Assembly: GCA_964416595.1 (NCBI GenBank)
Contig: CAYQES010000010.1
Coordinates: forward strand, 9,229 to 73,228
Reading direction: 5' to 3'
DNA: 64,000 nt
DNA from: an uncultured Bdellovibrionales bacterium
GTDB lineage: Bacteria > Bdellovibrionota > UBA1018 > CAIPTA01
The position numbers and the translations under genes are program-made. How positions within the stretch are numbered: position 1 is the first letter of the stretch; each line of letters opens with the position of its first letter. The notes under the pieces were generated by a model. It did not search any database and was not told where the DNA came from. It was given only the letters and a program-made list of their open reading frames with translations. This document shows positions 33,170-47,386 of the stretch, piece after piece.

Positions 33170-34297
33170 TTAAGCGAAGGGCACACGCTTAAACAATAGA
33201 TTCACTTCCGACTGGCAATTCCAATAACAATCCCGGCACTCTTTGGCCTGCTGGCGCATGGGCTTGATGCCTTCTCCGTTCCAATATTCTTTTAGCGGAG
33301 ACTTGCGAATATTGCCGTAGCTCTTGCGGTTCTCAAAATGCGGAAAACACGCAAAATAATCCCCGAAACCATCGATCGTTAAAGAAGCGTGGCCCGCAAC
33401 ACAAGGAGCGGGAAAAGGTTTGCCCATAAAAAAATCTTTTAAGAGGCGAAAATAGGCTTCCGAGTTTGTTTGCAAGTTGGAGCTGCGTTTTTTGGCGATC
33501 AAGAAATCGATGAGATCGTCGAGCTTTTTGTGGGCCTTCACTGGATCTGGATCCAAGTTTTGTAATAGTTCAGGGTGCTCTAACACATCCACTTGGTGCA
33601 CGGGATTGAAAGTAACTTGCCGAACGCCTAAATCTTCGGCGATTTGGAAAATGGACGGAATATCCGCAAAATTTCCTTCATGCACCACGGAGTTAATAGA
33701 AATATTGATGGTTTTTTTCTGCGCTTTTGCAGCCTCTTGGAGATACTTAATTCCATTCACCAAGCGCTCATAGGCCCCGGGCCGGCCCACCACCGCATCA
33801 TGCACTTCTGGATTGGAACCGTGGAGAGAAAGTGTAATTCCGTCCAAGCCCGCTTCCACCAAATCCTTGGCCATGGTTTCCGAAAGGTACCAACCACTGC
33901 TGGTGATATGGCTCACTAGCTTCGCTTGCTGGATCGCGCGGATAAAAGTGCGGATATGGGGGTGCGTGAGTGGCTCACCACCTGTGATGGTTACGGATCC
34001 CGAGCCGATTTCCTTGGCTTGCCGAATCAGACCCAAAATATCCTCTTGGCTGAGCACGGCCTTTTGCGGATCATTCCGGAATTCCCGATCCCGTTCGGGC
34101 AAATTGCAAAAACCACACTTCAAATTGCAGGCGTAGGTGAGGGCGAGGTTCACGCTGAGCGGAGCCGCAATCGGCATCTGCAGGGCGTGGCCGGCTTTTA
34201 CGAGGAGAAAATTTCGGCCATAGGCGAAGATTTTTTTCACGCCAAATTTTTTGGCGCCCTGGATGGCGTAATTTAGGTAAGGCAGGCGTTTAGGCAT
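33170..34297 (-). CDS. Radical SAM protein with SPASM/twitch-type C-terminal Cys cluster
   Basis: CxxxCxxC in YACNLKCGFCN, GGEP motif TITGGEPL. C-terminal C-x12-G-x4-C (CVAGHASLTIDGFGDYFAC) and CRDCYWNC. Confidence 0.85.
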   Translation of the reverse strand: MPKRLPYLNYAIQGAKKFGVKKIFAYGRNFLLVKAGHALQMPIAAPLSVNLALTYACNLKCGFCNLPERDREFRNDPQKAVLSQEDILGLIRQAKEIGSGSVTITGGEPLTHPHIRTFIRAIQQAKLVSHITSSGWYLSETMAKDLVEAGLDGITLSLHGSNPEVHDAVVGRPGAYERLVNGIKYLQEAAKAQKKTINISINSVVHEGNFADIPSIFQIAEDLGVRQVTFNPVHQVDVLEHPELLQNLDPDPVKAHKKLDDLIDFLIAKKRSSNLQTNSEAYFRLLKDFFMGKPFPAPCVAGHASLTIDGFGDYFACFPHFENRKSYGNIRKSPLKEYWNGEGIKPMRQQAKECRDCYWNCQSEVNLLFKRVPFA

Positions 34298-34424: not shown

Positions 34425-35069
34425 ATGAGCCCCAAAAAAATCCTCGCCGCCCTCGCCCTCTGCCTTGCCCTAGCAGGAGCCGCTTTTCTCTGGCGCAGCA
34501 AGCTCAACCCACAAAACCAAGATTCCCCCGCGAACACCGCAACCACCAACACAACCACCCCCGCCGCCCCCGCTGGCCGGCCCACCGCTGCTCCTCCGCC
34601 CCCGGGCGTGAGCGCTAGCTTTGTTACCTTCCTGCTTGCGGAAGCCCCTCTGCTGGAGAAAAAAACCGATGCGGAGGAAGCGCAAAAGCGCATGGAGCAA
34701 CAGGCCCAAATCATGAGTGAGGCGGATCTTAATTTTGCCAAAGATGTGGCGCTCTCGGATAAAAGCTCCGCCGCCGAACGCATCATCGCTGTTTATTTAC
34801 TCAGCCTCGCGGGGCCTAGGGCGTACAAAATTCTTTTGGAGCATGCCTCCGCCCCCTTCACCGCGCCCCCCAACCCTGAGCCCCATTCGGCGGATGAAAT
34901 AAAAAATTCCCAGGAAAAAGCCCTACGAGCCATTGCTATAGATGCTCTTTTGGAACAGGCCACTACCCAAGAAAAGCGGGATGATCTCAGTAAGTTAGCT
35001 ACAGAAACCCGTGAACCTTGGCTGCGCAGCTATATAGAAAAAGGCTTGAAAGCCCTGTCGCCACTGTAA
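34425..35069 (+). CDS. Hypothetical membrane-anchored/secreted protein with Thr/Pro-rich linker
   Basis: 214 aa, N-terminal hydrophobic helix, TATTNTTTPAAPAGRPTAAPPPP linker, then a helical repeat-like C-terminal part. Confidence 0.5.
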   Translation: MSPKKILAALALCLALAGAAFLWRSKLNPQNQDSPANTATTNTTTPAAPAGRPTAAPPPPGVSASFVTFLLAEAPLLEKKTDAEEAQKRMEQQAQIMSEADLNFAKDVALSDKSSAAERIIAVYLLSLAGPRAYKILLEHASAPFTAPPNPEPHSADEIKNSQEKALRAIAIDALLEQATTQEKRDDLSKLATETREPWLRSYIEKGLKALSPL

Positions 35070-35155
35070 GAATCTGTAAGAATTTACTCGCTTTCGTTAG
35101 CAGAAATTTCATGACCCTCCATGGTCATATCTTCCACCTTCTTGGAGGGGGGATT

Positions 35156-36508
35156 ATGAAATTATTTCTATCTATTTTTTTAGTTCTTTTCACACAAACC
35201 ACACAAGCAGCCACAGAGTGTATTTCCAAAGTAGAGATGCAGGAGATCACGCAACACTTCACCCAGTTTAGGGATTTAGCCAATCAGGACTATTGCTACG
35301 ATGGTTCCGAAACCTCCCACCTCTTGGCAGGCCTCATGTTCATGCGTAAAACCCAATTTGCCAATCCCATGGATCCCTCGAAGGATGAGTTCTTCTCCGG
35401 AAAATTCGCCAATGAGTGGTACAATTATTTCATCGGGCGCATTGAGGATTTCGAAGTAGATCCTAACTGCCCAAAAGGCGCTCTGGCTTATGTATACGCT
35501 TACGGTGGTCGCACCATGTTTGCTTGCACCGCGATGCTCACGGATAGCTACACAGCCTTGGATCGCGCCAGCGTGTTCATGCATGAAGCCCGTCACATCG
35601 ATGGCTACCCCCACATCACTTGCAGCAAGGGCGCAAGAGCCGGCCTCCGTGGCGCATGCGATAGACGCATCTCCGATGGCGGATCCTATGCAGTTACGGT
35701 GGAAACCTATGCGCAGCTAGCCCGCTACGCCACTGATATTCACCCCGCTCTTAAAGCCTACGCCCGCACTTCCGCGGCTGTGTATGCGGAGGAAACTTTT
35801 GAAAATCCTGCGATCATCAACCGCACCAAGCAATTCTTGGTGTTAGCTAACGACAAACGTTTCCACGCAGTAAAAACCGACGGCACCACAAAAGCCTTGG
35901 GGAGCACTCCAGCCCTTGGAAAAATCGTGATGCGTGGTTTGCACATGATCCTCTTCCCCGAGGATAAAACCCTTCCTGCGCGTTTTGTGTTTGCCAAAGA
36001 TGAAGGAGAAATTCCTCAGCAAGCGGGCAGCCAGGCCACCGAATACAATAGCCTAACTCCCGATCAACGGGCCCAATGGGTGGATGTGCATATAGCCGCC
36101 CAGTGGAATGCTATTGTGCTCAAAGATAAGGTGCGCTTCTCTTGCGATCCAAGAGCCAACACCACCACAGAAATTTCTCTCACCGATGAAACTCCTGTGA
36201 GCCTCTTGTACTTGAATGGCTATGATCGTTCAGCGCCTCTGGTTCAAGTAATGATGGAATCAGGAAAACTTTTTGATCTCGGTTGCTCTGAGCAGAAAGC
36301 TTCTCTCAAACCATCTACTATAGTTCTCGACCAAAAATACAAGAGCGTGCATAAAGTAGGAGATTTAACCTTAGGCCTCACGCAGGATGGAAACTTGCGG
36401 GAAATCCAGGGCACGGGCACTTCTCGCCCTTACTCCTTGGGAACATTAGACGGAACAATTTCCGCCCTAGTGCCAAACCAATCCTTAGAGTTTTTCCAAG
36501 AGAACTGA
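35156..36508 (+). CDS. Secreted protein with HExxH motif (putative zinc metallopeptidase-like)
   Basis: Start at MKLFLSIFLVLFTQTTQA (ATG 35156). It has a single HEARH motif in SVFMHEARHIDGYPH and several Cys pairs. Confidence 0.5.
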   Translation: MKLFLSIFLVLFTQTTQAATECISKVEMQEITQHFTQFRDLANQDYCYDGSETSHLLAGLMFMRKTQFANPMDPSKDEFFSGKFANEWYNYFIGRIEDFEVDPNCPKGALAYVYAYGGRTMFACTAMLTDSYTALDRASVFMHEARHIDGYPHITCSKGARAGLRGACDRRISDGGSYAVTVETYAQLARYATDIHPALKAYARTSAAVYAEETFENPAIINRTKQFLVLANDKRFHAVKTDGTTKALGSTPALGKIVMRGLHMILFPEDKTLPARFVFAKDEGEIPQQAGSQATEYNSLTPDQRAQWVDVHIAAQWNAIVLKDKVRFSCDPRANTTTEISLTDETPVSLLYLNGYDRSAPLVQVMMESGKLFDLGCSEQKASLKPSTIVLDQKYKSVHKVGDLTLGLTQDGNLREIQGTGTSRPYSLGTLDGTISALVPNQSLEFFQEN

Positions 36509-37681
36509 GGTCTCTTTTTGCTCTAAGAGTAAATCCGTTTCGGGAGCCAGGTGAATCCCACCTGGCTCTTTTTTTGCGCGCTCTTTTAGATGAGCTTGCA
36601 CTTGCGGGAGCAACAGCCCAAATAATTTCTTCGCTACAATCTCTATTCCCTCTTGGGAAATATGCATTGGGTCACGGAAAACCTCTTTGTTCACGCCCTT
36701 ATAAATTCCAGAAAAATCAGTAAAAGAAAATTCATTCCGAAACTGGCTCACGTGAACCAATAGATCTTTTATCCTATGTACGGCGATCTCCACATTGGCG
36801 GAATCTTGCATGATACTTAACTCACTCCCCAATTTCGGCTCCTTAAAATAAACGGTTGGCTGCAAAATCGCCTGAAACTTTGCATCTAAGCTTGCCGAAA
36901 CGAGGGCCGCAAGGCGCAGATTTTGCGCATAAGCCAATCTGCGTTTACGCTCTAACTCCGCTTCCAATTCGCTTCCAGAGTTCTTATAAGTGGCTCGCAA
37001 ATCTTTCGACTTTTGCTCAAAAAGATCTTGCACCAAGTTCTCCTGAAAATGATTGCGCAAAAACTGGCTATTCAAAGCCAGCATTGGCCAGAAAGGAGTT
37101 TCCGCCGCCGTGAGTTTCATGGCAGGGTTCATTTCGTACAAAATATAGCGATGGGGATAATTGGGGCGCTCATCGAAAGAAGGAGAAATGTCGCCATAGC
37201 CCCCATAAAACACCACCATGTCTGGCTGAAAAGTAGAAGCTTCTAGAAATAAGCGCACAAGATCTTGCCGAGAAATAGAAGAAACCGCGCCAAAATTAAA
37301 AACATGAACATTGCTCAAACCTTTTTTGTGAAAAAATCCTTCTAGCAAAAAAGAAAAGGGCGGGTTGCCGTTATACACAACGGAGCTGCCAAAAATAAAA
37401 ATCCGGTATTCGTCTTTAGTTTTCGTAGCTGCTGGCAGAGGGCCCCGATACCCTAAGGCGTTCTGGCCATCCACCAAAGGTTTACCCGCGGACATCACAT
37501 ACGGCCGAGGCATATGAGTAACATCGTTCACATTATCCATTATAGCGTGACTGCGGGGCAACTCCACCCAACGCGCGTACAGCTCTAGCACTGTGGCGAT
37601 GGCGCCCAAGAATAACAAAAATAAAAATAGACGGCCGAGCTCGCGCTCAACTCTGGCCCACTTTTGCTTGGGCTTAGCCAT
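36485..37681 (-). CDS. Membrane-anchored SGNH/GDSL-like hydrolase family protein (tentative)
   Basis: N-terminal TM helix, block I-like IFIFGSSVVYNG, block V-like DPMHISQEG (DxxH). The start overlaps the upstream stop by 1 nt (TAATG). Confidence 0.4.
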   Translation of the reverse strand: MAKPKQKWARVERELGRLFLFLLFLGAIATVLELYARWVELPRSHAIMDNVNDVTHMPRPYVMSAGKPLVDGQNALGYRGPLPAATKTKDEYRIFIFGSSVVYNGNPPFSFLLEGFFHKKGLSNVHVFNFGAVSSISRQDLVRLFLEASTFQPDMVVFYGGYGDISPSFDERPNYPHRYILYEMNPAMKLTAAETPFWPMLALNSQFLRNHFQENLVQDLFEQKSKDLRATYKNSGSELEAELERKRRLAYAQNLRLAALVSASLDAKFQAILQPTVYFKEPKLGSELSIMQDSANVEIAVHRIKDLLVHVSQFRNEFSFTDFSGIYKGVNKEVFRDPMHISQEGIEIVAKKLFGLLLPQVQAHLKERAKKEPGGIHLAPETDLLLEQKETSVLLEKL

Positions 37682-38655
37682 TATAACTCTCCGGCATACT
37701 CTCGATACAACCCACCCATGAGTAAGGCCGCGGATTCATCGCTTCCAGAATCGGCCAGAACCGCCAATCCCAATTCTCTTCCGTTCACATGAAAGGCCAA
37801 GGTGTGGTGATGCACGCTTACTGTATAAGGAGAGCCATCCGGATGACTGGGGCTACCCGTTTCTGGATCCACGGTGGGTCCGCTATAGGTTCCTGTTTTG
37901 CCGCCCACAAATACATTTCTGGGCAAATATTTTTTCCCCCTACTCGCGCCGGTGCGATGGGTATGCATGAGTTTCCACACCACTTCCGCACCAGGGTATC
38001 TTCCTTGGTAGGTATCATGGAGGAAGGCCACCAATTCATCGGCCGTCAATTCATTGCCATGGATGGATCCCCAATAACCTTGAAAGCCCCGCGTGCGGGC
38101 ATAGCCCATCCGCTGCGTGAAGCGATGGATCGTTTCACGGCCCCGATCAGAATCCCCGTCTCCCGCCTGGTTCTGCAATTTTGTCCAAGCTGTATTGGAA
38201 GAAACCACCAACATTTCCGCCATGAGCTGTAGCTGCTCTTGGGAAAAAGCGCCGTTTTGTTTGTCCACCAGGGCGGCGCCCACAAAGATTTTAGAAACCG
38301 AAGCACCAAATTGTTTACGGGAAGGATTGGCGCTGGAATCTAGCAGGCGACCCGAATCCAAATCCATCAAGGCCCATTGCACGCCATGGTTAGGTTGGGT
38401 TTTTGTGGCCTGTAGCAGCGCTAAATAGGCCTGTTTTTCTTGCTCCCGAAAGGGCACACCACTGCCCGTGGTTAACACCAAGGGAGAACCCGAAACCACC
38501 ACCCGCCGCAAATCTTGGCCGGTGGAAAGCCGTAAAAAATGGGGGTCCGTTACTGGACTACTAGAATTTACCGCCCCCCTTCCTGGTTCCGCTCCCACAG
38601 GAGCCGCCGGGGCACAAGCAGACAATACAAGGCACAAAAGCAAAATACGACTCAT
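37681..38655 (-). CDS. Secreted penicillin-binding-fold serine hydrolase (class A beta-lactamase / DD-peptidase-like)
   Basis: Signal/lipoprotein-like N-terminus MSRILLLCLVLSAC. All three fold motifs are present: SxxK (ASVSKIF), SxN (VVSSNTA), KTG (GGKTGT). Confidence 0.72.
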   Translation of the reverse strand: MSRILLLCLVLSACAPAAPVGAEPGRGAVNSSSPVTDPHFLRLSTGQDLRRVVVSGSPLVLTTGSGVPFREQEKQAYLALLQATKTQPNHGVQWALMDLDSGRLLDSSANPSRKQFGASVSKIFVGAALVDKQNGAFSQEQLQLMAEMLVVSSNTAWTKLQNQAGDGDSDRGRETIHRFTQRMGYARTRGFQGYWGSIHGNELTADELVAFLHDTYQGRYPGAEVVWKLMHTHRTGASRGKKYLPRNVFVGGKTGTYSGPTVDPETGSPSHPDGSPYTVSVHHHTLAFHVNGRELGLAVLADSGSDESAALLMGGLYREYAGEL

Positions 38656-38798: not shown

Positions 38799-38826
38799 TT
38801 GACCAAAACAATCAAATCGATATAGA
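38799..38826 (+). promoter_or_regulatory. Candidate sigma70-type promoter for the 38868-43639 operon
   Basis: TTGACC-16 nt-TATAGA, with the -10 ending 41 nt upstream of the ATG at 38868. Confidence 0.35.
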
Positions 38827-38867: not shown

Positions 38868-40682
38868 ATGAAAATCATTTTCGCTCTTCTCTCTGTAACT
38901 CTCGTTTCCTTGGCCGCGGCGTTCGCTGCAGGATTCAACATCTCGGACTACAATCAGGCGCTTCCCTCCTGGGGAACCTCTTGGCGGCCCGGCGCTGATG
39001 CCCTGAACGGCTATTACCCCAGCTTCTACACGGGCTTTGCCATGAGAAGCAGCTTCCCCGACCGCATCCACGTGCGCTTAGCCCGCGGGAACCAAACCAG
39101 AGTATCAGTTATCCTCGATGAGCAAACCATCAGCGACTACCTCTTTGATCTCGCCAAACGCCATGAGTTCTACCAAGCCGCCAATGCTGCCCAACTCATC
39201 CGACCCGTAAGTAGCGAAAAGGCCAGCGTTACCCCCCAACTCCAATACTTCAACCAAATCTTAGAAGCCGAAGGCATCCTCTCCTTCGTGGACAGCGCCA
39301 AACGCGGCAACCAATCTGCCGAAACCATTTATCGTAAAAGCCTCGAAACCCTCACCGCCCTAAATCCGGGCCGGGTGTTCTCTCTGCGGATCAATCTGCA
39401 AACAGAATTCTTAAAGTGGAAATCGCAAATGCGCGCCCTCTTGGCTAACGAAAACGATGCCCAAACTTTTTTCAGCAGCAAGCCTGACCAAGCGGTGATC
39501 GCCCTCAACAGTTTATTGTGGGGAAGAATCAACCTAGTAGATGCGCCCTCCAAAGAAATGCTCACGCTATTAGCGAACACTGCCACTCTCGCCAAAAGCG
39601 ATAACAACAACGAGCAATTTATTCTTTCGGCTCTAGCTCTTTTCCAAATGACCACGGGAAATAAATATAAATTCCGCGTATTGGAAAATGGCCAATGGCA
39701 AAATGCCATCCAATGCCAAAACGTAAACCAGTGCTTTCTAGTGTATCCAGAATTCACCACGATTTACCCCACTGGCTCTGTAAAATCTTCCACTAAAGAT
39801 CAGTTCGGAAACACAATTCCCACCTTCGCCACTCCCGGTCTCTGGCGCTTTCTCTCCCGCGGCAGCAGGCACGACGTGGATAATATCCGCGACGAAAGCT
39901 ACTACGGCTGGGCACCGAAAATGGATTACGAAGAAATCGGTAACGGCTTCCACAATCCCGCTGTGCGTTTTGCCGGGATCGGTAGCGAAGTAAAATCTGC
40001 TCTCGGCATCAACGAAACCCACAGCACTTTGTGGAGCGTGATGCGCGGCGGAGTTTCTCACGGTTGCTCTCGCCTATCCTTGGGCCATGTTTGGGAAATG
40101 CGCCATATCTTCCCTGTGGAAAACGAAAAAATGACCCAAGTGTACTTCTTCGGCAATAACCCTCAGGATTTCGACGTTTACGACGTGGACGGTAACGGTA
40201 GCCCTGAAGTGATGGGCGTGGAATATATGATTTCCTACAATGTGAAAGGCTCTAGCGGCCTAGCTCGCCGAGAAGGCGCTGATCTAAAGATTAGCAAAGA
40301 GGATAAACTGAATTTCTACAGTGATCTCTACGGCGCCGAGAACGTGTTCACCCAAGATAGCAGCGGAAATTTCATATTCCACAATCCCTCTGCTTCGATC
40401 CTCTCCTATTTGAATTTCCAGAAAAAGAAAATCACCACCCGCTTGCAAGTGAATGGTGAAATTCCCCTCTGGGAGCAAGCCTACGAGCGGGATAAGGTAC
40501 AGTTCTATCTACCTTTCACCACACAAGGCCTCACTACCGCAGGCAGCTCCCCATTGAGTAAACGTATCGTGCGTTTATTGGGTCGGGTTCGTGGTTGCGC
40601 TCCTACCACCAACAAAAATCTTTGCGGCGAAGCAGCTTTCGATGCGGAAGCACAAAAAATATTGGCTGAAATTGCTCAATAA
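38868..40682 (+). CDS. Secreted protein with C-terminal L,D-transpeptidase (YkuD)-like catalytic motif
   Basis: Signal peptide MKIIFALLSVTLVSLAAAFA. THSTLWSVMRGGVSHGCSRL matches the His...SHGC-R signature. The N-terminal ~380 aa are unrecognised. Confidence 0.45.
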   Translation: MKIIFALLSVTLVSLAAAFAAGFNISDYNQALPSWGTSWRPGADALNGYYPSFYTGFAMRSSFPDRIHVRLARGNQTRVSVILDEQTISDYLFDLAKRHEFYQAANAAQLIRPVSSEKASVTPQLQYFNQILEAEGILSFVDSAKRGNQSAETIYRKSLETLTALNPGRVFSLRINLQTEFLKWKSQMRALLANENDAQTFFSSKPDQAVIALNSLLWGRINLVDAPSKEMLTLLANTATLAKSDNNNEQFILSALALFQMTTGNKYKFRVLENGQWQNAIQCQNVNQCFLVYPEFTTIYPTGSVKSSTKDQFGNTIPTFATPGLWRFLSRGSRHDVDNIRDESYYGWAPKMDYEEIGNGFHNPAVRFAGIGSEVKSALGINETHSTLWSVMRGGVSHGCSRLSLGHVWEMRHIFPVENEKMTQVYFFGNNPQDFDVYDVDGNGSPEVMGVEYMISYNVKGSSGLARREGADLKISKEDKLNFYSDLYGAENVFTQDSSGNFIFHNPSASILSYLNFQKKKITTRLQVNGEIPLWEQAYERDKVQFYLPFTTQGLTTAGSSPLSKRIVRLLGRVRGCAPTTNKNLCGEAAFDAEAQKILAEIAQ

Positions 40683-40691
40683 GAGGATCTT

Positions 40692-42062
40692 ATGAAATAT
40701 TTTCTACTTTTAACCCTACTCTTTAGCACCGCGGCCAAAGCGGATCTAAAAGAAGATTTCGAAGCCGTAAATAAAGAATCCAAGGGCGCCTTTGGCCAAA
40801 ATTATTTGCAAGGCACCTCTTCTCGTACCACCGTGAGCTCCGGAAAATCGCCAAAAAATTTTCTGTTCCAAGCGGCGTATCGCAATGAAAAAGCGCAAAT
40901 CTTGGTGGACACGCACCAGTTTTACTTAGGCAACCTTTTCACCACCAACTACTACCAGTTGATGGGTGAGTATGTGTATGGCGACGTGAATTCCGATCAC
41001 GAAATCGATCACTCAGCGCTTCTAGCCAACAGCCAAGAAGCCATGAAAAAAGCCAGTCTCATCATCAAACACTGGGTGTTGGAAAAGCATTATATCTTCC
41101 ACTTCCCGAACACAAACTTAGCCAAAGGCTTCGCTTACCGCGGAATCGGAGGCTCGGAATTTGAGCGCCCCTATGCGGAACATTTTTTCAATTTCTATTT
41201 ATCTTCCATGAATGATGACTTCCAATATTTACCGGCCTTCCTCTTAGTGAACCAAAGCCCCATCGTGGATTCTTCTTCTTTGGATAAAGCCCGGCTCTTG
41301 ATCTCCGATTCCTACGAATATTTCAAAGCCCGCTTTGGGGCCAACGATGATCGCGTGAAGGCACTATTCAAATTGCGCAACGCCATCCACAATCAGCTCT
41401 CAAAAGCTGTAATTGCCCAAATCGACCAATACTATGTGGATTATCCCTTCTATCTAGAAGAAGGTCACACGTACCTGGGAGTGATCCGCGAGATCTTGGT
41501 GGATTATTTTAGCTTCAGCGCCGATAAAATCAGTAAAGATGCCGCCGCCATTGGCTTAAGCGATCTCCAAGCTGCTGCGGATCAAATCACCACCGAGGGA
41601 GCTATTACGCCCGAAAACCTCCTGGCTCTTTCGCGGGTGGCCGCCCAATGGAAAACGGATATCGGCAGCGATAAAATCGATTTCAAAAATCGCGCCCGCA
41701 CTTTGGCTGTGCTCACGAAAGTTAGCCGCTTCCTCAATAAAGAGTTGGCAGCTTTAGAAAACGCCAAAAATCCTGCAGCTATCGAAGCCGTAGTGAACAC
41801 CATTTACTTGGAAGGTTTTCTGATCAAAGACAACTGGCAGTACTTCAAAGACGAAGTTCCGCTTACCTCTGATTATGCCAGTTTACTTTCTGACATTTTA
41901 GAAATCGCCGGCGGCGGCACTGGCAGCACTCTGCAAGAAGCCTTCAAGGGGGCCTATGAGCAATGGCTCATCGTGGAACCCAAAATGGAGTACTTCCTCG
42001 ATAACACAATTAAATCTTCGTCTCTTAACATGGCCGCGCTAGTGGCAGAAAAAGTTCGTTAA
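40692..42062 (+). CDS. Hypothetical secreted protein
   Basis: 456 aa with signal peptide MKYFLLLTLLFSTAAKA. No recognised motif. It starts 9 nt after the upstream gene. Confidence 0.5.
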   Translation: MKYFLLLTLLFSTAAKADLKEDFEAVNKESKGAFGQNYLQGTSSRTTVSSGKSPKNFLFQAAYRNEKAQILVDTHQFYLGNLFTTNYYQLMGEYVYGDVNSDHEIDHSALLANSQEAMKKASLIIKHWVLEKHYIFHFPNTNLAKGFAYRGIGGSEFERPYAEHFFNFYLSSMNDDFQYLPAFLLVNQSPIVDSSSLDKARLLISDSYEYFKARFGANDDRVKALFKLRNAIHNQLSKAVIAQIDQYYVDYPFYLEEGHTYLGVIREILVDYFSFSADKISKDAAAIGLSDLQAAADQITTEGAITPENLLALSRVAAQWKTDIGSDKIDFKNRARTLAVLTKVSRFLNKELAALENAKNPAAIEAVVNTIYLEGFLIKDNWQYFKDEVPLTSDYASLLSDILEIAGGGTGSTLQEAFKGAYEQWLIVEPKMEYFLDNTIKSSSLNMAALVAEKVR

Positions 42063-42079
42063 CAAAAAAGGTGAATATA

Positions 42080-43639
42080 ATGAAAAAATATCTCTTAGCA
42101 CTGGCACTTTTAGTTTCTTCCTTAGGCGCAAAACAAGCTCTTGCGGGAGCCAAAGTAATGAACCCCGGCGAGGCAAAAGGCCAATTGGTTTTCATTTCCG
42201 ATGAAGATGTGCGCATGGGTTCAGAAAAGTTCAAAAGCCTTTCACCGCTTTCGATTCCCGCATTTGCTGAATTGCCGATGGATATGTCGGTAGTAGCTGG
42301 GGCGATCACGCTAAAACAGCAGAACTTAAACTCCCACGTGCAATTAAAATCCCGCGCCCGCAAAACCCCAAACCTCGATATCTCTGATCTTGAAGGCGGG
42401 ATGCAAAACGAGCTTTTGAAAAACTTTAAGGATGGGGATTGGATCCACCTACTATTGGGTACCGATGGTAGCGTGCAAATCACCGCTTCCAGCGAACAAG
42501 AAGCTTTAAAATTCTACCAAGATAGAAAAACCGTGGAAGTTAAAATCCGCGCTGATTTACAAGCCAATAAAATCTACGAACACGCAGAATTATCTTCCAA
42601 GGATTCTGATAAAGTAGGATCCAAAGCCGCCAACTATGCGGAACTTGCGAAAGCCCTCAACACCCCCGAGCGCACCGTGGTTCGCCCAGGTTACGCCTTG
42701 CCTTTCTATTACTACCAACAGTTCATCGACTCTAATCCAGAGATCAAAGCAGCCATCGAAAAGATGCTCCGGGATCCGCTCATGACCAAAATTTCCAAAG
42801 TGAGCTACCGGGAACAAAAACTCCAAATGATCCAAGCGATGATTTTGAGCGAAGCCAGCGTGATCAGCCAAGAACTAGTGGATAATATGTTAGCCATTTT
42901 GGACACAAAACTCACCAAAGATGGCCACAAGCGGAAAATGAAACTCCGTAGCTCTACCAACGCTGAAGATCTACCAAACTTCAATGGTGCTGGTCTCTAT
43001 ACTTCCGAATCCTATAAGCCAGAAAAAGACGGAGTAGAAAAACCCCACGAGAAAAAAGTAAAAAGCTTAAAAGAAGCTTTGCGCGTGGTATGGGCTTCCG
43101 TTTGGAACGTTCGTGCCTACGAAGAGCGTAATTACTTCCGCATTCCCCATGAAGACGTAAAAATGGGCGTGCAGATCAATCCCTCCTTCAGTAATGAGGG
43201 GGTGGATGGAGTAGTAGTTACAAAAAATATTGCTAATGCCAACGGGCTAGAGGGTGCTGCTGTTTATATCGAGGCCCAGCGCGGAGATAAATATAGCGTG
43301 GCCAATCCTGAGAGCGGAACCCGCCCAGAGCGCATACTCGTGATGGTAGATGCTGCAGATAAACTAAACACTGCCGCTTACCAAATCCATGTATTGCAAA
43401 AATCCAACGTGGCTGACGATATGATCACCGTATTGGATCACGACAATCCCAATCCGATTATGAGTGACGAAAACATCAAAGATCTTGTGTACCAAAGCCT
43501 AAAGGCGGAAGCGCACTTCAAGCCGATCTTCGGCCAGAATAATAATGCTTTTGCTTTGGACATCGAATTCAAGGTGGACAGCGAAGACACGGGCTCGCCG
43601 CAAATATACTTAAAACAAGCTCGCCCCTATATCGACTAA
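42080..43639 (+). CDS. Signal-peptide-bearing PEP-utilising-type enzyme: phosphohistidine swivel domain followed by PPDK_N ATP-grasp domain
   Basis: Start at ATG 42080 (AAGGTG SD 7 nt upstream). Signal peptide MKKYLLALALLVSSLGAKQALA. Swivel pattern VVAGAITLKQQNLNSHVQLKSRARKTPNL. ATP-grasp patterns VGSKAANYAELAK, LRSSTNAEDLPNFNGAGLYTSE, VWASVWNVRAYEER. Confidence 0.7.
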   Translation: MKKYLLALALLVSSLGAKQALAGAKVMNPGEAKGQLVFISDEDVRMGSEKFKSLSPLSIPAFAELPMDMSVVAGAITLKQQNLNSHVQLKSRARKTPNLDISDLEGGMQNELLKNFKDGDWIHLLLGTDGSVQITASSEQEALKFYQDRKTVEVKIRADLQANKIYEHAELSSKDSDKVGSKAANYAELAKALNTPERTVVRPGYALPFYYYQQFIDSNPEIKAAIEKMLRDPLMTKISKVSYREQKLQMIQAMILSEASVISQELVDNMLAILDTKLTKDGHKRKMKLRSSTNAEDLPNFNGAGLYTSESYKPEKDGVEKPHEKKVKSLKEALRVVWASVWNVRAYEERNYFRIPHEDVKMGVQINPSFSNEGVDGVVVTKNIANANGLEGAAVYIEAQRGDKYSVANPESGTRPERILVMVDAADKLNTAAYQIHVLQKSNVADDMITVLDHDNPNPIMSDENIKDLVYQSLKAEAHFKPIFGQNNNAFALDIEFKVDSEDTGSPQIYLKQARPYID

Positions 43640-45561
43640 GGCTCAAAGGAATAAATTCCTTCCACTTGCAGCCGATTTTTTAGGTGGCCGGCGGAAAAGC
43701 CCTGATCGTGCACGATTTCCTGGCTATAAGCCCTGGCCCGCTCCTTCTTACCCAAGTAGTGATTTCCCAGGGTTAAAACGGGAAGTAAACCAAAACGCCC
43801 TGGGCTACCCTTGGGCACTCTTTTAGCTAAAGACTCAAAAAAATCCACAATCGCCTGGCGGGCGGGTTTTCCTTGGAGCGGAAAAAGGAAAAGCTGAATG
43901 CCTTCGAATTCCCGCAGTAAATACCCCTCAGGAAGCATTGCGGCCTTAAGTTTTTGCCCATCCCAAGAATTATACAACACAATTGCGAGCCACTCCGGCT
44001 CCCAATCAGACTGAAAAAATCGCGGAAGCCACGTGAGCATATCGGAATTTTCAAATTCTTCGGAAGGAAAGTCCGCTTGCCCGCCCGCTTTCACGTGCTT
44101 TAGTTTCATATAAAATTGCTCGCCAATCAGCCAAGGGCAAAACTTATTGCCTGAGGCTAAGCAGAAATTTAAAATCGCAACTTTTTTCCCGTCAAATTCA
44201 TTAATGGCTGAAAAGAACGCACGCGTATTGTCCCGCGAGGGCGGATTAGGAATATAGTTTTTGTAAGCATTTGGGTAAACTAAAGATAAAATAGCGGTCA
44301 CAGAAAAAAGCGGAACCCACACCGGCCAGCGCCCCAAGCCACTCATTTTCCAACGCTCTTCCACAAATTGAATCCCATGGGCCAAAAAGAAAAATGATAG
44401 GGGCCAAACGGCCAGGAGATAATAAGCTTGGAGCGGCCACTCAATATAACCTTTGAAATAAGGAATCAAAAAAGCCAGAAAAAGAAAGGCAGTGAGACCA
44501 AACAGCAATAGTCCATAAAAAGAGTGAGATAAGGTAGGTTTTTCTTTTTTCTTAAAAAAACAGGAAAAAAGAAAACAAAGTAGAAGCGCCAGTAACAATG
44601 GCAAAAGTGGCGTGATGTAAACAGAAAGATAATAAGAAAAATTAGCCGAGGTTACTTCCGCCCATAAAAATTCCAATGTGAACGGTTTTGTGCGCGAGAT
44701 CCGCGGTGTGGAAATGCGCAAAATGTAAAGCTGAACCGGAGTAAAGGCGAGCACTCCTATGCTTACGGCAAACACAATCCGCAACCGATTTTTCCATAGA
44801 GAAACAGGCGCCACAGCCAAAGCCACACAAGCGCCACCGATCACCACTACCGGTTGCATGCCAATGGCCAACAGCGAACACAAACAAATGGCCGCTAGAT
44901 ACACTCCCTCTCCCCAACTCATGGCTCGTTTTAGAAGTGGCACAAGAAAACTGCAGAAAATAATGATGGTGAACATGCCGATGGAAAGGGGGCGTGCTTC
45001 ATAGCCATATTGGGTAACAATTCCATGCAGTGAATAAAACAACACACCCAAAACCGCTATTACCCAGTGGCCCGTGATTCTACGCAACTGCACAGCCAAG
45101 AGGCCCGCTGCTGCGCTAGAAAAAAGGCAGGCACTGAAACGGCCCGTGAGTTCCGTAAGACCAAACAGCCGAACGATACTGTTTATTAAAATAAATTCAA
45201 ACGGAGGCTGGTGCTGGCTCGCGGCAGCGGCCACAGGCATTTGCCGAATGGCAGTGGATACTTGGTAATCCTCATCAAGCCAAATGGGAATCTGGTGCAC
45301 TAGAGAAATGCGAAACACTAACATCAGGAAGAAAAAAAACAGGAACGCTTGGATCTCATTCCACTCCTTGGTGCTAAGTTTCCAGCGGAAATATTTAGTT
45401 TCAGTGAAAAGAAGAGCTAAAAAAAATACGAAAATAATTCCGGAAAAATAAATTTCTATTTCGGGAGAAAAAAGCTCTTTGCCATTAAAAAAAGAAAAAA
45501 TCGCCCCGGCTGATCCCCAACCAAACAAAAAGAGGGTCAAAAAACGCTCTAAAGCTGCCAT
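43636..45561 (-). CDS. Large polytopic membrane protein, GT-C-fold (ArnT/PMT-like) glycosyltransferase candidate
   Basis: Start taken at MAALERFL (45561). It has more than 12 TM helices, an acidic first-loop motif IWLDEDYQ, and a soluble C-terminal domain. Confidence 0.5.
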   Translation of the reverse strand: MAALERFLTLFLFGWGSAGAIFSFFNGKELFSPEIEIYFSGIIFVFFLALLFTETKYFRWKLSTKEWNEIQAFLFFFFLMLVFRISLVHQIPIWLDEDYQVSTAIRQMPVAAAASQHQPPFEFILINSIVRLFGLTELTGRFSACLFSSAAAGLLAVQLRRITGHWVIAVLGVLFYSLHGIVTQYGYEARPLSIGMFTIIIFCSFLVPLLKRAMSWGEGVYLAAICLCSLLAIGMQPVVVIGGACVALAVAPVSLWKNRLRIVFAVSIGVLAFTPVQLYILRISTPRISRTKPFTLEFLWAEVTSANFSYYLSVYITPLLPLLLALLLCFLFSCFFKKKEKPTLSHSFYGLLLFGLTAFLFLAFLIPYFKGYIEWPLQAYYLLAVWPLSFFFLAHGIQFVEERWKMSGLGRWPVWVPLFSVTAILSLVYPNAYKNYIPNPPSRDNTRAFFSAINEFDGKKVAILNFCLASGNKFCPWLIGEQFYMKLKHVKAGGQADFPSEEFENSDMLTWLPRFFQSDWEPEWLAIVLYNSWDGQKLKAAMLPEGYLLREFEGIQLFLFPLQGKPARQAIVDFFESLAKRVPKGSPGRFGLLPVLTLGNHYLGKKERARAYSQEIVHDQGFSAGHLKNRLQVEGIYSFEP

Positions 45562-45565
45562 AGCT

Positions 45566-47386
45566 CTACTTCCCCTTAAATTTCGCGATGGAATCCAAGT
45601 GCTGCTCTTTAGCTTCGGAAAGTTGCAGCCAACGCTCTTCCAATTCCTGCATATGCACACCCAAGGAACTTAAACGCAGCACCCAATCACTAACGGGAGA
45701 TTCAGCCTCCACAATTTTCTGGTTCAAAGTTTCACTTTCCTCTTGCACGCGCTGCATCTCTTGTTCACATTCCAAAAGTTGTTTTTCACAGAGGCGATAT
45801 TCGCGCTCTAGCTTTTTTTTAGCGTCCTTCCAGTTTTCTGGCTTTTCAAGCACAATCTCTGGGGAGCATTTTTCTTTTGTTACCACTGGTAACTCTTCCG
45901 CAACCAGTTGCTGCACACTCCATACATATTCTTCATAGGTGCCCGGGTAGAGCCGCACTTGCCCGCGAGCCACCTCCAGGATTTTTGTGCCCACTCGTTT
46001 GATAAAACCCCGGTCGTGGCTCACCACCACAACAGTGCCTTCATAGGCGGCCAGAGCATTCGTGAGGGCCTCAACGGTTTGAAAATCTAAGTGGTTGGTG
46101 GGCTCATCGAGCACCAAACAAGGCGCCTTTTGTAATAGCACCCGGCCGAGAGCCACCCGGGATTTTTCCCCCCCGGAAAGAACAGAAATGAGCTTTTTTA
46201 CGTCGTCTCCCGAAAATAAAAGAGAACCGGCCAAATCCAGGATTTCTTGGGGCCTCACATCCCTATGGGCCGCCCGCTCTAGGGATCTTAGTACAGTATC
46301 CGTTGGCTCCAAGGCTTCCACCACATGTTGAGCAAAAAATGCCAACTCCACGCTCAAGCCAAATTCTACTTTGCCATGCAGCGGAGCCAAGGCGCCCGAG
46401 AGGCCTTTTAGCAAAGTAGATTTACCCGCTCCATTCATTCCTACCACGGCCACATGATCGCCCCGCTGCACTTGCAGATTCACATTACGCAAAATGATAT
46501 TTTCGCCGTAACCAAACTGGGCTTGGTCCATGGCTAAGGTAAGTTTTCCAGTTTTGGCGGGAGCCGGAATAGCGATCCGCGTAGTCACAGGCAATGGTTT
46601 GATTTCAATTTCTTCCATGCGTGCCAAGCTTTTTAAACGGGATTGGGCCTGGCGAGCTTTAGTGGCCGAAGCGCCAAAGCGGGCCACAAAATCCAAGATA
46701 TCTTTTCGCTTAGCAGCTTGGCCGGCAGCTCGGGCTTGCAATTGAGCGCGGAGCAAAGTTTTTTGCTCGAAGTAATCGTCAATATTTCCGTTGAACTTCG
46801 TGACCTCTTGATTCTCCACCTCCAAGATGTGATCAGTGGTGCGCCTCAAGAATTCTCGATCATGGGAGATCAGCAAAAAGGCCCCCTCAAAACCTTGAAG
46901 AAAGCGCTCCAACACTAGAGTGGTTTCCAAGTCCAAATAGTTTGTGGGCTCATCCAAAAGCATAAGATTGGGCGCTTGCCCAAGTAAACCCAATAACTTA
47001 AGGCGCATGCGATAGCCGCCGCTCAAAGAGAGCACGGGTTTTTCCAAAATTTCTTCGTTGAGCTGCAAAATTCTTCCTTGGGATTTTAATTCCCAGAGTG
47101 GAATTTTTGTTACCCTAGCCAAATAACTATTACCGCTTTCTCCCGGCTCCCAAATCTCATGCTGGGAAAGATAGCCTAAAGATAATTTCCGAGAGCGCAC
47201 CACGACGCCTTCATCCAAAGATTCTTCTTCCGTAAGAATGCGAAAGAGCGTGGATTTGCCAGCACCATTGGGGCCTATTACGCCCACATGTTCCCCCGCA
47301 TTGAGGGAAAAAGTGGCGTCCGTAAAAAGCGTGCGGGAGCCATAGGATTTTGTGCCGTTTTGGAGTTGTAAGAGATTTTCGGCCAT
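45566..47386 (-). CDS. ABC-F family ATPase (two ABC domains, no TM domain, C-terminal coiled coil)
   Basis: Walker A GPNGAGKST and GMNGAGKST, signatures LSGGYRMR and LSGGEKSR. Start taken at MAENLLQL. Confidence 0.9.
   Translation of the reverse strand: MAENLLQLQNGTKSYGSRTLFTDATFSLNAGEHVGVIGPNGAGKSTLFRILTEEESLDEGVVVRSRKLSLGYLSQHEIWEPGESGNSYLARVTKIPLWELKSQGRILQLNEEILEKPVLSLSGGYRMRLKLLGLLGQAPNLMLLDEPTNYLDLETTLVLERFLQGFEGAFLLISHDREFLRRTTDHILEVENQEVTKFNGNIDDYFEQKTLLRAQLQARAAGQAAKRKDILDFVARFGASATKARQAQSRLKSLARMEEIEIKPLPVTTRIAIPAPAKTGKLTLAMDQAQFGYGENIILRNVNLQVQRGDHVAVVGMNGAGKSTLLKGLSGALAPLHGKVEFGLSVELAFFAQHVVEALEPTDTVLRSLERAAHRDVRPQEILDLAGSLLFSGDDVKKLISVLSGGEKSRVALGRVLLQKAPCLVLDEPTNHLDFQTVEALTNALAAYEGTVVVVSHDRGFIKRVGTKILEVARGQVRLYPGTYEEYVWSVQQLVAEELPVVTKEKCSPEIVLEKPENWKDAKKKLEREYRLCEKQLLECEQEMQRVQEESETLNQKIVEAESPVSDWVLRLSSLGVHMQELEERWLQLSEAKEQHLDSIAKFKGK

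What the first reader, a model, noticed from the sequence alone, without database searches (positions are those of the whole stretch)
38868..43639. Tightly coupled operon of three signal-peptide proteins: YkuD-like, unknown, dikinase-like
Seen in sequence: three plus-strand ORFs are separated by 9 nt and 8-17 nt, and a TTGACC-16-TATAGA promoter-like element lies upstream. Each starts with a basic n-region, a hydrophobic core and an AxA-type site (AAFA|AG, AAKA|D, QALA|G). The first (604 aa) has THSTLWSVMRGGVSHGCSRL, which matches the L,D-transpeptidase/YkuD catalytic His...SHGC-R signature, after ~380 aa of sequence I cannot assign. The second (456 aa) has no motif I recognise. The third is the permuted His-swivel/ATP-grasp enzyme. 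Inference: this looks like one functional cassette of exported proteins combining a peptidoglycan-stem-peptide-directed cysteine enzyme fold with a phosphotransferase. The middle protein could be the substrate-binding module that the two-domain dikinase lacks, giving a split rifampicin-phosphotransferase-like logic. This is the best candidate in the window for an undescribed system.
Basis: partly seen in the sequence, partly recalled or inferred. Interest (0 to 1): 0.75.

Follow-up and report, generated by a model that had tools for sequence, protein, structure and literature searches.

The report
Exported split dikinase with unknown partners
Three tightly packed genes encode exported proteins that stay together across several bacterial phyla: a phosphate-transferring, ATP-using enzyme split into two genes, plus a conserved cysteine-containing protein of unknown fold. 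This suggests an undescribed ATP-dependent reaction outside the cytoplasm, where ATP is generally thought to be scarce or absent.

Summary
The three ORFs, their 9-nt and 17-nt junctions and their signal-peptide-like N-termini are real.

- **Conservation.** The trio is conserved. Of 49 related loci with enough flank, 44 carry all three genes, across Bdellovibrionota, Gammaproteobacteria, Alphaproteobacteria, Desulfobacterota, Binatia and Myxococcota.
- **Fusion.** In 37 of 64 loci, genes 2 and 3 are one ~1000-aa protein: gene-2 domain, then phosphohistidine swivel, then ATP-grasp. The window therefore carries a split form. The domain order is that of plant glucan, water dikinases, not a permuted PpsA or rifampicin phosphotransferase (RPH).
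- **Genes 1 and 2.** Both have no Pfam or NCBIfam family, confident AlphaFold models (pLDDT 93–94) and no match in the PDB.
- **YkuD reading.** It holds only for a ~29-residue motif, SHGCxR plus the following helix. PF03734 fails for the window protein, fold and PDB profile searches find nothing, and the upstream histidine is not conserved.
- **Neighbours.** A class-A beta-lactamase-like lipoprotein gene is a fourth recurrent member (21 loci). In 15 distant loci, NTT/TLC nucleotide transporter genes lie beside the system, and seven also have a UshA-like 5'-nucleotidase. That hints at a supply of ATP to the periplasm.

The substrate is unknown. This is a new variant of the dikinase kind and is worth experiments.

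The parts
37681..38655 (-). Class-A beta-lactamase-like (penicillin-binding fold) lipoprotein, transcribed divergently from gene 1. It is a recurrent fourth member of the neighbourhood.
   Evidence: PF13354 at E 3e-10. The motifs SVSK (119), SSN (152) and KTG (253) are present and conserved in 22 orthologues. The N-terminus has the lipobox LSAC. A homologue lies next to the trio in 21 of 80 loci, on either side, including Chromatiales and Hyphomicrobiales.
38799..38826 (+). TTGACC-16-TATAGA, a promoter-like site in the 212-nt divergent intergenic region. Weak evidence only.
   Evidence: Read and verified. The consensus scan did not report it, and matches of this quality are common by chance.
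38868..40682 (+). Gene 1: a 604-aa exported protein of a small uncharacterised family. The lone family-wide invariant cysteine (Cys400) is the candidate nucleophile.
   Evidence: No Pfam or NCBIfam hit. More than 270 full-length homologues at 50-65% identity, all named 'hypothetical' where named. Only 201 representatives in 1.84 billion. AF2 pLDDT 93.8 with no PDB fold match.
38868..38927 (+). Gene 1 signal-peptide-like segment, MKIIFALLSVTLVSLAAAFA|AG.
   Evidence: Hydrophobic N-termini are also present in orthologues.
40044..40076 (+). Gene 1 motif RGGVSHGCSRL. R393, G394, S397, G399 and C400 are invariant across phyla. It resembles the YkuD cysteine loop locally.
40167..40208 (+). Gene 1 DxDxDG-type loop (DFDVYDVDGNGSPE), a likely Ca2+ site.
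   Evidence: D436, D439 and G442 are invariant. Homologues give sub-threshold EF-hand and FG-GAP hits at this position.
40692..42062 (+). Gene 2: a 456-aa exported, mainly alpha-helical protein. It is the detached N-terminal domain of the dikinase and is inferred to be the acceptor-binding or second-site domain.
   Evidence: No Pfam or NCBIfam hit. AF2 pLDDT 92.9 with no PDB fold match. It is fused in frame to the gene-3 homologue in 37 of 64 loci. Polar residues invariant across phyla: K31, N37, E131, R201, H233, N234, D437, S443.
42080..43639 (+). Gene 3: a 519-aa exported protein with a phosphohistidine swivel domain followed by an ATP-grasp (PPDK_N) domain.
   Evidence: PPDK_N at E 3e-24. 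Profile hits to PEP synthase structures 9dae, 2ols and 8a8e. Orthologues are annotated as PEP/pyruvate-binding domain protein.
42080..42145 (+). Gene 3 signal-peptide-like segment, MKKYLLALALLVSSLGAKQALA|GA. It occupies the position of the inter-domain linker in the fused orthologues.
42146..42529 (+). Swivel (PEP-utilisers-type) domain. The candidate phosphohistidine is His86 (codon 42335-42337) within NSHVQLKSRARKTPN.
   Evidence: S85 and H86 are invariant, and H86 is invariant in fused orthologues. PF00391 scores E 0.13 in one close orthologue. At the homologous position in fused orthologues it scores 2e-4 to 8e-3, just below the gathering score.
42608..43627 (+). ATP-grasp nucleotide-binding domain with the family's catalytic motifs intact: GSKAAN, RSSTNxEDLPxFNGAG, LDxEFK and KQARP.
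   Evidence: K182, R290, S291, T293, E296, D297, D494, E496, Q513 and R515 are invariant across phyla.

Best explanation
Genes 2 and 3 are the two halves of one Sec-exported enzyme of the PEP-utilising dikinase kind.

Proposed steps:
1. The ATP-grasp domain of gene 3 uses ATP to phosphorylate His86 on the swivel domain, releasing AMP and phosphate.
2. The swivel domain carries the phosphoryl group to an acceptor held by the gene-2 protein. In most other lineages that protein is the enzyme's own N-terminal domain.
3. Gene 1 is an obligate partner outside the cytoplasm. It is rich in invariant arginines, has a Ca2+-type loop and has one invariant cysteine (Cys400). I infer that it acts on the phosphorylated, activated product, or prepares the substrate, through a covalent cysteine intermediate.
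4. The divergent beta-lactamase-like lipoprotein is an accessory serine enzyme of the same pathway.

My best guess for the target is a cell-envelope component, most likely a peptidoglycan-derived peptide or carboxylate.

In many non-Bdellovibrionota lineages, the ATP would be supplied by NTT-type nucleotide transporters encoded in the same cluster. The AMP would be removed by a periplasmic UshA-like 5'-nucleotidase.

Shown: gene linkage, the fusion, domain identities, intact catalytic motifs and conserved export signals.
Inferred: localisation, the phosphoryl relay, the roles of genes 1 and 2, the target and the direction of nucleotide transport.
For: - **Linkage.** 44 of 49 loci with more than 3.3 kb on both sides of the gene-1 homologue carry homologues of genes 2 and 3. 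Two gene orders occur (g1-g2-g3 and g2-g3-g1), across at least six major lineages.
- **Fusion.** 37 of 64 loci have a single 960-1080-aa ORF. The split form is confined to the window's own clade, and the break lies at the linker.
- **Domains.** PPDK_N scores 3e-24 in the window protein and 1e-22 to 7e-28 in fusions. PF00391 scores 2e-4 to 8e-3 in fusions. The swivel His and the ATP-grasp motifs are invariant.
- **Export.** Signal-peptide-like N-termini occur on gene 1, on the fusions and on the 5'-nucleotidase in distant phyla. In the split form, gene 3 has acquired its own.
- **ATP supply.** NTT/TLC transporter genes (PF03219 at 2e-21; TIGR00769 down to 5e-17) lie within 10 kb in 15 loci. These come from Desulfobacterota, Binatia, Polyangiaceae and Alphaproteobacteria, in four different arrangements. 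One arrangement is a tightly packed fusion-NTT-g1-(NTT-HEAT-cNBD) operon.
- **AMP removal.** A UshA-like 5'-nucleotidase (1e-107) lies divergent upstream in 7 loci.
- **Peptidoglycan theme.** A beta-lactamase-like gene with intact SxxK, SxN and KTG motifs occurs in 21 loci. Gene 1 has a local YkuD-type cysteine-loop match.
Against: - No experiment exists and no signal-peptide predictor was run.
- The periplasm is not known to hold ATP.
- The window and the other Bdellovibrionota loci have no NTT gene within reach. The ATP-supply argument therefore does not come from this lineage.
- NTTs characterised so far import nucleotides (PMC5381601).
- The folds of genes 1 and 2 match nothing, so their roles are guesses.
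- The choice of peptidoglycan as target rests on a 29-column motif and a neighbouring gene.
- About half of the NTT-positive loci are close relatives (Desulfatiglandales) and are not independent observations.
Confidence: 0.55

Rival explanations
1. Peptidoglycan remodelling by a true, very divergent L,D-transpeptidase. Gene 1 would form a thioester with stem peptides. The dikinase would activate or mark the peptide or glycan so that cross-linking or attachment can proceed without the usual D-Ala-D-Ala energy source.
For: - Local hhalign match of the SHGCxR-plus-helix segment to YkuD: probability 78-90%, P about 1e-5 to 2e-6, against <=0.4% for shuffled controls.
- Sub-threshold PF03734 hits at the homologous position in 5 of 20 distant members.
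- A penicillin-binding-fold neighbour in 21 loci.
- The system occurs only in diderm lineages.
Against: - PF03734 gives no hit for the window protein.
- Foldseek against the PDB finds no hit despite a pLDDT of 93.8. The PDB holds solved L,D-transpeptidase structures.
- The family profile finds no PDB chain at E<=10.
- The profile finds only 201 proteins in 1.84 billion.
- The histidine 15 residues before the cysteine is not conserved.
- The match covers 29 of about 140 domain positions.
Confidence: 0.2
2. A bacterial counterpart of reversible starch phosphorylation. The fused enzyme would be a 'polymer, water dikinase' that phosphorylates an insoluble envelope or extracellular polysaccharide to loosen it. 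Gene 1 would be a cysteine-dependent phosphatase or transferase that removes or moves the phosphate.
For: - The domain order acceptor domain, then phosphohistidine domain, then C-terminal ATP-grasp is that of GWD/PWD. This is established knowledge; His992 of potato GWD is cited in PMC12892837.
- A weak hit to PF22973 GWD1_pHisD (E 0.26).
- Many invariant arginines in gene 1.
- A GH39-like neighbour in two Binatia loci.
- GWD works together with the cysteine phosphatases SEX4 and LSF2 (PMC12892837).
Against: - No carbohydrate-binding module or glycoside-hydrolase family is detected in any of the three proteins.
- Gene 1 has no CX5R phosphatase signature.
- The GWD1_pHisD hit is far below threshold.
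- Glycan-related neighbours are not consistently present.
Confidence: 0.15
3. A periplasmic detoxification cassette. An RPH-like phosphotransferase would inactivate an antibiotic or xenobiotic, aided by a beta-lactamase-like hydrolase and, in some lineages, RND efflux.
For: - The ATP-grasp domain hits the rifamycin phosphotransferase model (2e-7 for the window protein, 1e-18 for a fusion).
- A beta-lactamase-like neighbour is frequent.
- OEP, HlyD and a ~1090-aa gene taken to be an RND pump (not itself scanned) lie downstream in Desulfatiglandales.
Against: - Scores are 30-67 bits against a cut-off of 999. The domain order differs from RPH, and gene 2 shows no match to the RPH rifampicin-binding domain.
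- The set is syntenic within lineages and its composition matches its surroundings; no transposase or integrase genes were looked for. This fits a housekeeping function better than a resistance island.
- This reading gives gene 1 no role.
Confidence: 0.1

Closest known systems
Alpha-glucan, water dikinase and phosphoglucan, water dikinase (GWD/PWD; EC 2.7.9.4 and 2.7.9.5) of plastids
   Same: Both belong to the dikinase superfamily. Both have the order substrate-binding N-terminal part, then phosphohistidine domain, then C-terminal PPDK_N ATP-grasp. Both act in a compartment that imports ATP through NTT-type carriers (plastid NTTs, PMC5381601).
   Different: There is no CBM45 or CBM20, and the N-terminal part is a helical domain of unknown fold. 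The protein is Sec-exported in bacteria and split into two genes here. The acceptor is unknown. There is no significant sequence match beyond the shared domains.
PEP synthase (PpsA) and pyruvate, phosphate dikinase
   Same: The closest sequence relatives of the ATP-grasp domain (PRK06464 at 1e-23; PDB 9dae, 2ols and 8a8e). The swivel His motif SH...(A/S)R....P is shared.
   Different: The order in PpsA is ATP-grasp, then swivel, then TIM barrel. Here there is no PEP/pyruvate TIM-barrel domain (PF02896 is absent). PpsA is cytoplasmic. Scores fall far below the equivalog cut-offs (83 bits against 598).
Rifampicin phosphotransferase (RPH) and the prodigiosin ligases PigC/RedH
   Same: Both are three-part enzymes in which a dikinase core phosphorylates or activates a non-pyruvate substrate held by a family-specific domain.
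   Different: The order is ATP-grasp, then substrate domain, then swivel. Those enzymes are cytoplasmic. Gene 2 is unrelated to their substrate domains as far as fold and profile searches can tell.
YkuD-type L,D-transpeptidases (PF03734)
   Same: Extracytoplasmic cysteine enzymes with the motif S-(H/x)-G-C-x-R-(L/M) followed by a helix.
   Different: The match is local only. The catalytic histidine upstream is not conserved. There is no fold or family-level match. Gene 1 is about 600 aa with a large helical insert and an N-terminal beta region that have no counterpart.
NTT-HEAT-cNBD nucleotide-transporter fusions of free-living bacteria (Major, Embley and Williams 2017, PMC5381601)
   Same: Proteins with this three-part architecture (an NTT-like N-terminal half by BLAST clustering, plus HEAT and cNMP-binding domains by Pfam) are encoded next to the system in Desulfobacterota, Binatia and Polyangiaceae.
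   Different: They are absent from the window. Their function and transport direction are unknown. The link to an exported ATP-using enzyme was not found in the papers searched.

Membership tests
PEP-utilising dikinase superfamily (PpsA/PPDK/GWD/RPH) | ATP-grasp nucleotide-binding domain (PF01326 PPDK_N) above the gathering score | tested here: met
   86.2 bits against a cut-off of 27, E 3e-24, residues 180-519. The motifs align to PpsA structures.
PEP-utilising dikinase superfamily (PpsA/PPDK/GWD/RPH) | Mobile phosphohistidine domain (PF00391) with the conserved Ser/Thr-His | tested here: inconclusive
   S85-H86 is invariant. PF00391 gives no hit for the window sequence and E 0.13 for one close orthologue. 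Fused orthologues score 16-21 bits against a cut-off of 23.1 at the homologous position.
PEP-utilising dikinase superfamily (PpsA/PPDK/GWD/RPH) | ATP-dependent autophosphorylation on the histidine, with release of AMP | not testable with these tools
   This needs a biochemical assay.
PEP synthase / PPDK proper | C-terminal PEP/pyruvate-binding TIM barrel (PF02896) and equivalog-level score | tested here: not met
   PF02896 gives no hit. PRK06464 scores 83 bits against 598, and TIGR01418 scores 69 against 740.
Rifampicin phosphotransferase | Order ATP-grasp, then RIF-binding domain, then swivel; NF041857 score | tested here: not met
   29.7 bits against a cut-off of 999. The order here is reversed. 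Gene 2 does not match RPH structures.
Glucan, water dikinase (GWD/PWD) | Order N-terminal substrate-binding part, then phosphohistidine domain, then C-terminal ATP-grasp | tested here: met
   Seen in the fused orthologues and in the gene order g2-g3.
Glucan, water dikinase (GWD/PWD) | Starch-binding modules (CBM45 or CBM20) and the GWD-type phosphohistidine domain (PF22973) | tested here: not met
   No CBM hit. PF22973 appears only at E 0.26 in one orthologue.
YkuD L,D-transpeptidase (PF03734) | Profile match above the gathering score (23.4 bits) | tested here: not met
   The window protein has no hit at E<=0.1. The best score among 20 distant members is 15.6 bits.
YkuD L,D-transpeptidase (PF03734) | YkuD beta-sandwich fold | tested here: not met
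   Foldseek of the pLDDT-93.8 model against the PDB gave no hit with E<0.9 and no L,D-transpeptidase among the 50 listed. The domain could not be searched on its own.
YkuD L,D-transpeptidase (PF03734) | Catalytic His ~15-17 residues before the Cys of the S-x-G-C-x-R motif | tested here: inconclusive
   The cysteine motif is invariant and matches locally. His385 is present in the window's clade but is Tyr, Asn, Phe or Leu elsewhere.
Class A beta-lactamase / penicillin-binding fold (neighbour at 37681-38655) | PF13354 match and the SxxK, SxN and KTG motifs | tested here: met
   40.3 bits against a cut-off of 22. The motifs are conserved in 22 orthologues. The true beta-lactamase equivalog scores 24 bits against 200, so it is not a canonical beta-lactamase.
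NTT/TLC nucleotide transporters (neighbours in distant loci only) | PF03219 or TIGR00769 match | tested here: met
   L048 scores 76.7 bits against a cut-off of 21 for PF03219. Other loci are weaker or sub-threshold. There is none in the window.

The most novel reading that the evidence does not exclude
Diderm bacteria of several phyla run an ATP-powered phosphotransfer pathway in the periplasm. Dedicated NTT-type carriers export ATP, including the long-unexplained NTT-HEAT-cNBD fusions. An exported dikinase uses that ATP to phosphorylate or activate an envelope substrate. A new-fold cysteine enzyme (gene 1) then processes the substrate, and UshA-like nucleotidases recycle the AMP. This would be a first dedicated ATP economy outside the bacterial cytoplasm, and it would give free-living bacterial NTTs a function.
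Probability: 0.3. Interest if true: 0.9.

Novelty: new variant of a known kind. Interest (0 to 1): 0.72.

Why it matters
The periplasm is generally treated as free of ATP. Envelope chemistry there is explained by pre-activated donors such as lipid-linked precursors or D-Ala-D-Ala bonds. From my own knowledge, exported ATP-dependent enzymes are rare exceptions, the periplasmic DNA ligase LigE being one.

An exported enzyme with an intact ATP-grasp and phosphohistidine relay is therefore notable. It is conserved together with two families of unknown fold, and in several phyla it is encoded in one operon with nucleotide transporters.

Two open questions become directly testable:
- Do bacteria deliver ATP to the periplasm on purpose?
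- What do NTT-HEAT-cNBD proteins do in free-living bacteria?

The finding also defines two new protein families with confident models. It provides a natural split/fused pair that is well suited to biochemistry.

Tried and rejected
- **Family scans.** Pfam and NCBIfam on genes 1 and 2 gave nothing.
- **Fold searches.** Foldseek against the PDB gave only noise for both models (TM <=0.18).
- **Gene 1 against the PDB.** A family profile found nothing at E<=10.
- **Gene 2 against the PDB.** A profile gave only a weak helical match to an LXG-domain protein (1.7e-4). I read this as compositional similarity.
- **Full-length hhalign of gene 1 against YkuD.** Probability was 20% with a meaningless alignment. 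Only the domain-restricted run gave a clean local match.
- **Harvesting YkuD structures.** A divergent YkuD from locus L035 found no PDB chains.
- **Beta-lactamase-like protein against the PDB.** phmmer found nothing.
- **Source contig.** The exact-sequence look-up for the window's gene 1 found no record.
- **NTT and 5'-nucleotidase in the window.** tblastn found none.
- **Spurious NTT hits.** Apparent NTT matches in L047, L054 and L065 cover only the cNMP-binding domain, so I discarded them.
- **Promoter-like site.** I rejected it as evidence.
- **Literature.** Five searches found no description of this system.
- **Reverse reaction.** I considered a periplasmic ATP-making reaction with NTT import. 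I judged it unlikely because no extracellular high-energy phosphodonor is known and the adjacent 5'-nucleotidase would destroy AMP.
- **Long ORFs in high-GC loci.** Stop-to-stop ORFs that seemed to fuse gene 1 to other genes (for example L062 and L078) look like frame-overlap artefacts. I did not use them.

Full report
**1. The observation**

The three + strand ORFs are at the stated coordinates. The spacer between genes 1 and 2 is 9 nt and contains GAGGA. Gene 2 is followed by 8 nt to a GTG or 17 nt to an ATG, and AAGGTG precedes that ATG. Orthologues of gene 3 begin MK.., which favours ATG 42080.

All three N-termini have a short basic start, a hydrophobic core and an A-x-A site. Gene 3's stop codon overlaps, by bases, the stop codon of a convergent membrane-protein gene.

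The promoter-like TTGACC-16-TATAGA exists at 38799-38826. It is a weak match of a kind the scan finds about six times per 5.6 kb in shuffled sequence. I give it no weight.

**2. Family assignments in the window**

Gene 3 has a clear PPDK_N ATP-grasp domain (E 3e-24). Genes 1 and 2 match nothing in Pfam or NCBIfam, including PF03734. The divergent upstream gene (37681-38655, minus strand) is a class-A beta-lactamase-like protein. It has a lipoprotein signal and intact SxxK, SxN and KTG motifs.

Each of the three proteins has more than 100 full-length homologues in metagenomes. These are almost all from Bdellovibrionota. Those of genes 1 and 2 are named 'hypothetical' where named. Those of gene 3 are called 'hypothetical', 'PEP/pyruvate-binding domain-containing protein' or 'pyruvate, water dikinase'.

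**3. Neighbourhood conservation**

A scan of one genome per species found 95 matching stretches and kept 80 loci with a gene-1 relative. Local tblastn showed homologues of genes 2 and 3 beside it in 64 of these. Among the 49 loci with more than 3.3 kb on both sides, 44 have both.

The lineages include:
- Bdellovibrionota
- Chromatiales and other Gammaproteobacteria
- Hyphomicrobiales and other Alphaproteobacteria
- Desulfobacterota
- Binatia
- Myxococcota

Two gene orders occur, g1-g2-g3 (40 loci) and g2-g3-g1 (24 loci). A few loci hold a lone gene-1 paralogue (L014, L016). About a dozen distant loci hold two gene-1 paralogues in tandem. The beta-lactamase-like gene is adjacent in 21 loci, on either side, in three lineages.

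**4. The fusion**

In 37 of the 64 loci, the gene-2 and gene-3 homologues form one ORF of 960-1080 aa. This holds in Bdellovibrio sp., Bacteriovoracaceae and Chromatiales (order g1, then fusion). It also holds in the distant phyla (order fusion, then g1). The split form is confined to the clade that contains the window.

An alignment shows gene 2 ending where the fused proteins have a 20-30-residue linker. Gene 3's signal peptide sits at that linker, and the mature gene-3 protein (GAKVMNPGEAKGQLVF...) aligns with the next domain.

The fused proteins hit PF00391 (PEP-utilisers mobile domain) at 2e-4 to 8e-3, at the position homologous to gene 3's N-terminal domain. They hit PPDK_N at 1e-22 to 7e-28. 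Their histidine motif, GNVVSHVQLLARALGVPNAV, is close to canonical.

The architecture is therefore gene-2 domain, then phosphohistidine swivel, then ATP-grasp. This is the domain order of plant GWD/PWD. That is established knowledge; the catalytic His992 of potato GWD is cited in PMC12892837. It is not the order of PpsA, PPDK or RPH.

Residues invariant across phyla:
- Swivel domain: His86.
- ATP-grasp: Lys182, the RSSxxxED motif, D494, E496, Q513 and R515.
- Gene 2: a polar set of K31, N37, E131, R201, H233, N234, D437 and S443, which looks like a binding or catalytic site.

**5. Structures**

AlphaFold2 models are confident: gene 1 has pLDDT 93.8 and pTM 0.92, and gene 2 has pLDDT 92.9 and pTM 0.88. 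Gene 2 is a small beta-sheet followed by about 20 helices. Gene 1 has an N-terminal beta region, a helical insert and a beta-rich C-terminal half.

Foldseek against the PDB gave no hit better than E 0.2 and TM 0.18 for either model. Profile searches of PDB sequences gave nothing for gene 1 and only a weak helical match for gene 2. Both look like undescribed folds, within the limits of a whole-chain Foldseek search.

**6. The YkuD question**

Against:
- PF03734 gives no hit for the window protein.
- Neither the fold search nor the PDB profile search finds a match.
- A profile of 53 family members finds only 201 proteins with E<=1e-3 among 1.84 billion representatives, many of them fragments. 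That is far too few for it to be reaching the large YkuD superfamily, although the hits were not individually checked.

For:
- R393, G394, S397, G399 and C400 are invariant across phyla.
- Five of 20 distant members give sub-threshold PF03734 hits (E 0.02-0.18), always at the cysteine region.
- A domain-restricted profile-profile comparison aligns SHGCxR and the following helix (28-29 columns) with probability 78-90%. Twenty column-shuffled controls stayed at or below 0.4%.

I conclude that gene 1 is not a demonstrable YkuD member. It shares a YkuD-type cysteine loop, through either very remote homology or convergence. Gene 1 also carries a DxDxDG-type loop, several invariant arginines and clade-specific cysteine pairs. 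These features fit an extracytoplasmic enzyme that binds an anionic substrate.

**7. Export and the ATP problem**

Signal-peptide-like N-termini are present on the fusions and on gene 1 in distant phyla. When the enzyme split, the C-terminal half acquired its own signal peptide. That is hard to explain unless both halves must leave the cytoplasm.

An ATP-grasp enzyme in the periplasm needs ATP. In Desulfatiglandales the genes are packed as fusion, NTT, g1, then NTT-HEAT-cNBD, with 4-140-nt gaps. A UshA-like 5'-nucleotidase (1e-107) lies divergent upstream, and OEP/HlyD efflux genes plus a ~1090-aa gene that I take to be an RND pump (not scanned) lie downstream.

NTT-type genes (PF03219 at 2e-21; TIGR00769 down to 5e-17) occur within 10 kb in 15 loci. 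These come from Desulfobacterota, Binatia, Polyangiaceae and an alphaproteobacterium, in four different arrangements.

NTT-HEAT-cNBD fusions are known to be widespread in free-living bacteria and have no known function (PMC5381601). A dikinase releases AMP, which a periplasmic 5'-nucleotidase would remove.

The window and the other Bdellovibrionota loci have no NTT nearby. For this lineage the ATP source is therefore open.

**8. Interpretation**

The best-supported reading is a Sec-exported dikinase system, split in this lineage. ATP phosphorylates His86. The phosphoryl group then passes to an acceptor on the gene-2 domain. Gene 1 is an obligate cysteine-dependent partner, and the beta-lactamase-like lipoprotein is an accessory.

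The target is unknown. A peptidoglycan-derived substrate is my first guess, because of the penicillin-binding-fold neighbour and the YkuD-type cysteine loop. A polysaccharide (GWD analogy) and a xenobiotic (RPH analogy) are rivals. Relatives such as PigC and RedH, which the fusion's ATP-grasp also hits, use the same core to activate a substrate for condensation. That makes activation followed by transfer to Cys400 a plausible chemistry, but this is inference.

**9. Novelty**

Five literature searches found no description of this system. The enzyme core belongs to a known superfamily, so I class the finding as a new variant of a known kind. What is new:
- the exported location
- the acceptor domain
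- the obligate partner family
- the link to nucleotide transporters

Interest is high. The finding makes deliberate ATP supply to the periplasm, and the function of bacterial NTT fusions, directly testable.

Noticed in passing
L048:5313-14761 (also L051, L052, L056, L058, L060, L067, L073): In Desulfatiglandales the system is one tightly packed operon: g2-g3 fusion, NTT (434 aa), g1, then NTT-HEAT-cNBD (1091 aa). A UshA-like 5'-nucleotidase lies divergent upstream. OEP and HlyD efflux genes and a ~1090-aa gene that I take to be an RND pump (not scanned) lie downstream.
   Followed up: partly
L053:9779-13201, L061, L063, L068, L069, L071, L078, L079: Two gene-1 paralogues lie in tandem. One type starts WDGSKPAPGIYFYWYEP and the other is a second type. 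This suggests a heteromeric partner in distant lineages.
   Followed up: no
L037:9588-11828, L053, L059, L064, L069: A transporter that fuses a sodium:dicarboxylate symporter (PF00375) to a family-3 solute-binding domain (PF00497) recurs next to the system in five loci. It may import a product.
   Followed up: no
window 35018-36508 (+): A 496-aa protein with an internal signal-peptide-like start (MKLFLSIFLVLFTQTTQA) and an HExxH motif (HEARH), with no Pfam family. Homologues at 50% identity lie upstream of the trio in L027 and L047 only.
   Followed up: partly
window 36485-37681 (-): A 398-aa protein of unknown family. Its start overlaps the stop of the beta-lactamase-like gene by one base, so it is probably co-transcribed with that gene. 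It is not conserved next to the trio elsewhere.
   Followed up: partly
window 43636-45660 (-): A 674-aa polytopic membrane protein with only a faint match to a mannosyltransferase model (E 0.01). It is convergent with gene 3 and the two stop codons overlap.
   Followed up: no
window 33170-34297 (-): A radical SAM protein with a SPASM domain (PF04055 at 1e-24, PF13186 at 1e-8), of the kind found in peptide-maturation clusters. No link to the trio was seen.
   Followed up: no
P0437 (257 aa): A metagenomic protein that joins the first ~100 residues of a starch/glycogen-synthase catalytic domain (PF08323 at 5e-17) to residues ~391-500 of the gene-1 family. It could be a chimeric assembly or a real fusion.
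   Followed up: no
L014:9992-11794, L016:9917-11686: Lone gene-1 paralogues (54-58% identity) with no gene 2 or 3 within 10 kb. L016 is in the same MAG as a complete locus (L011).
   Followed up: no
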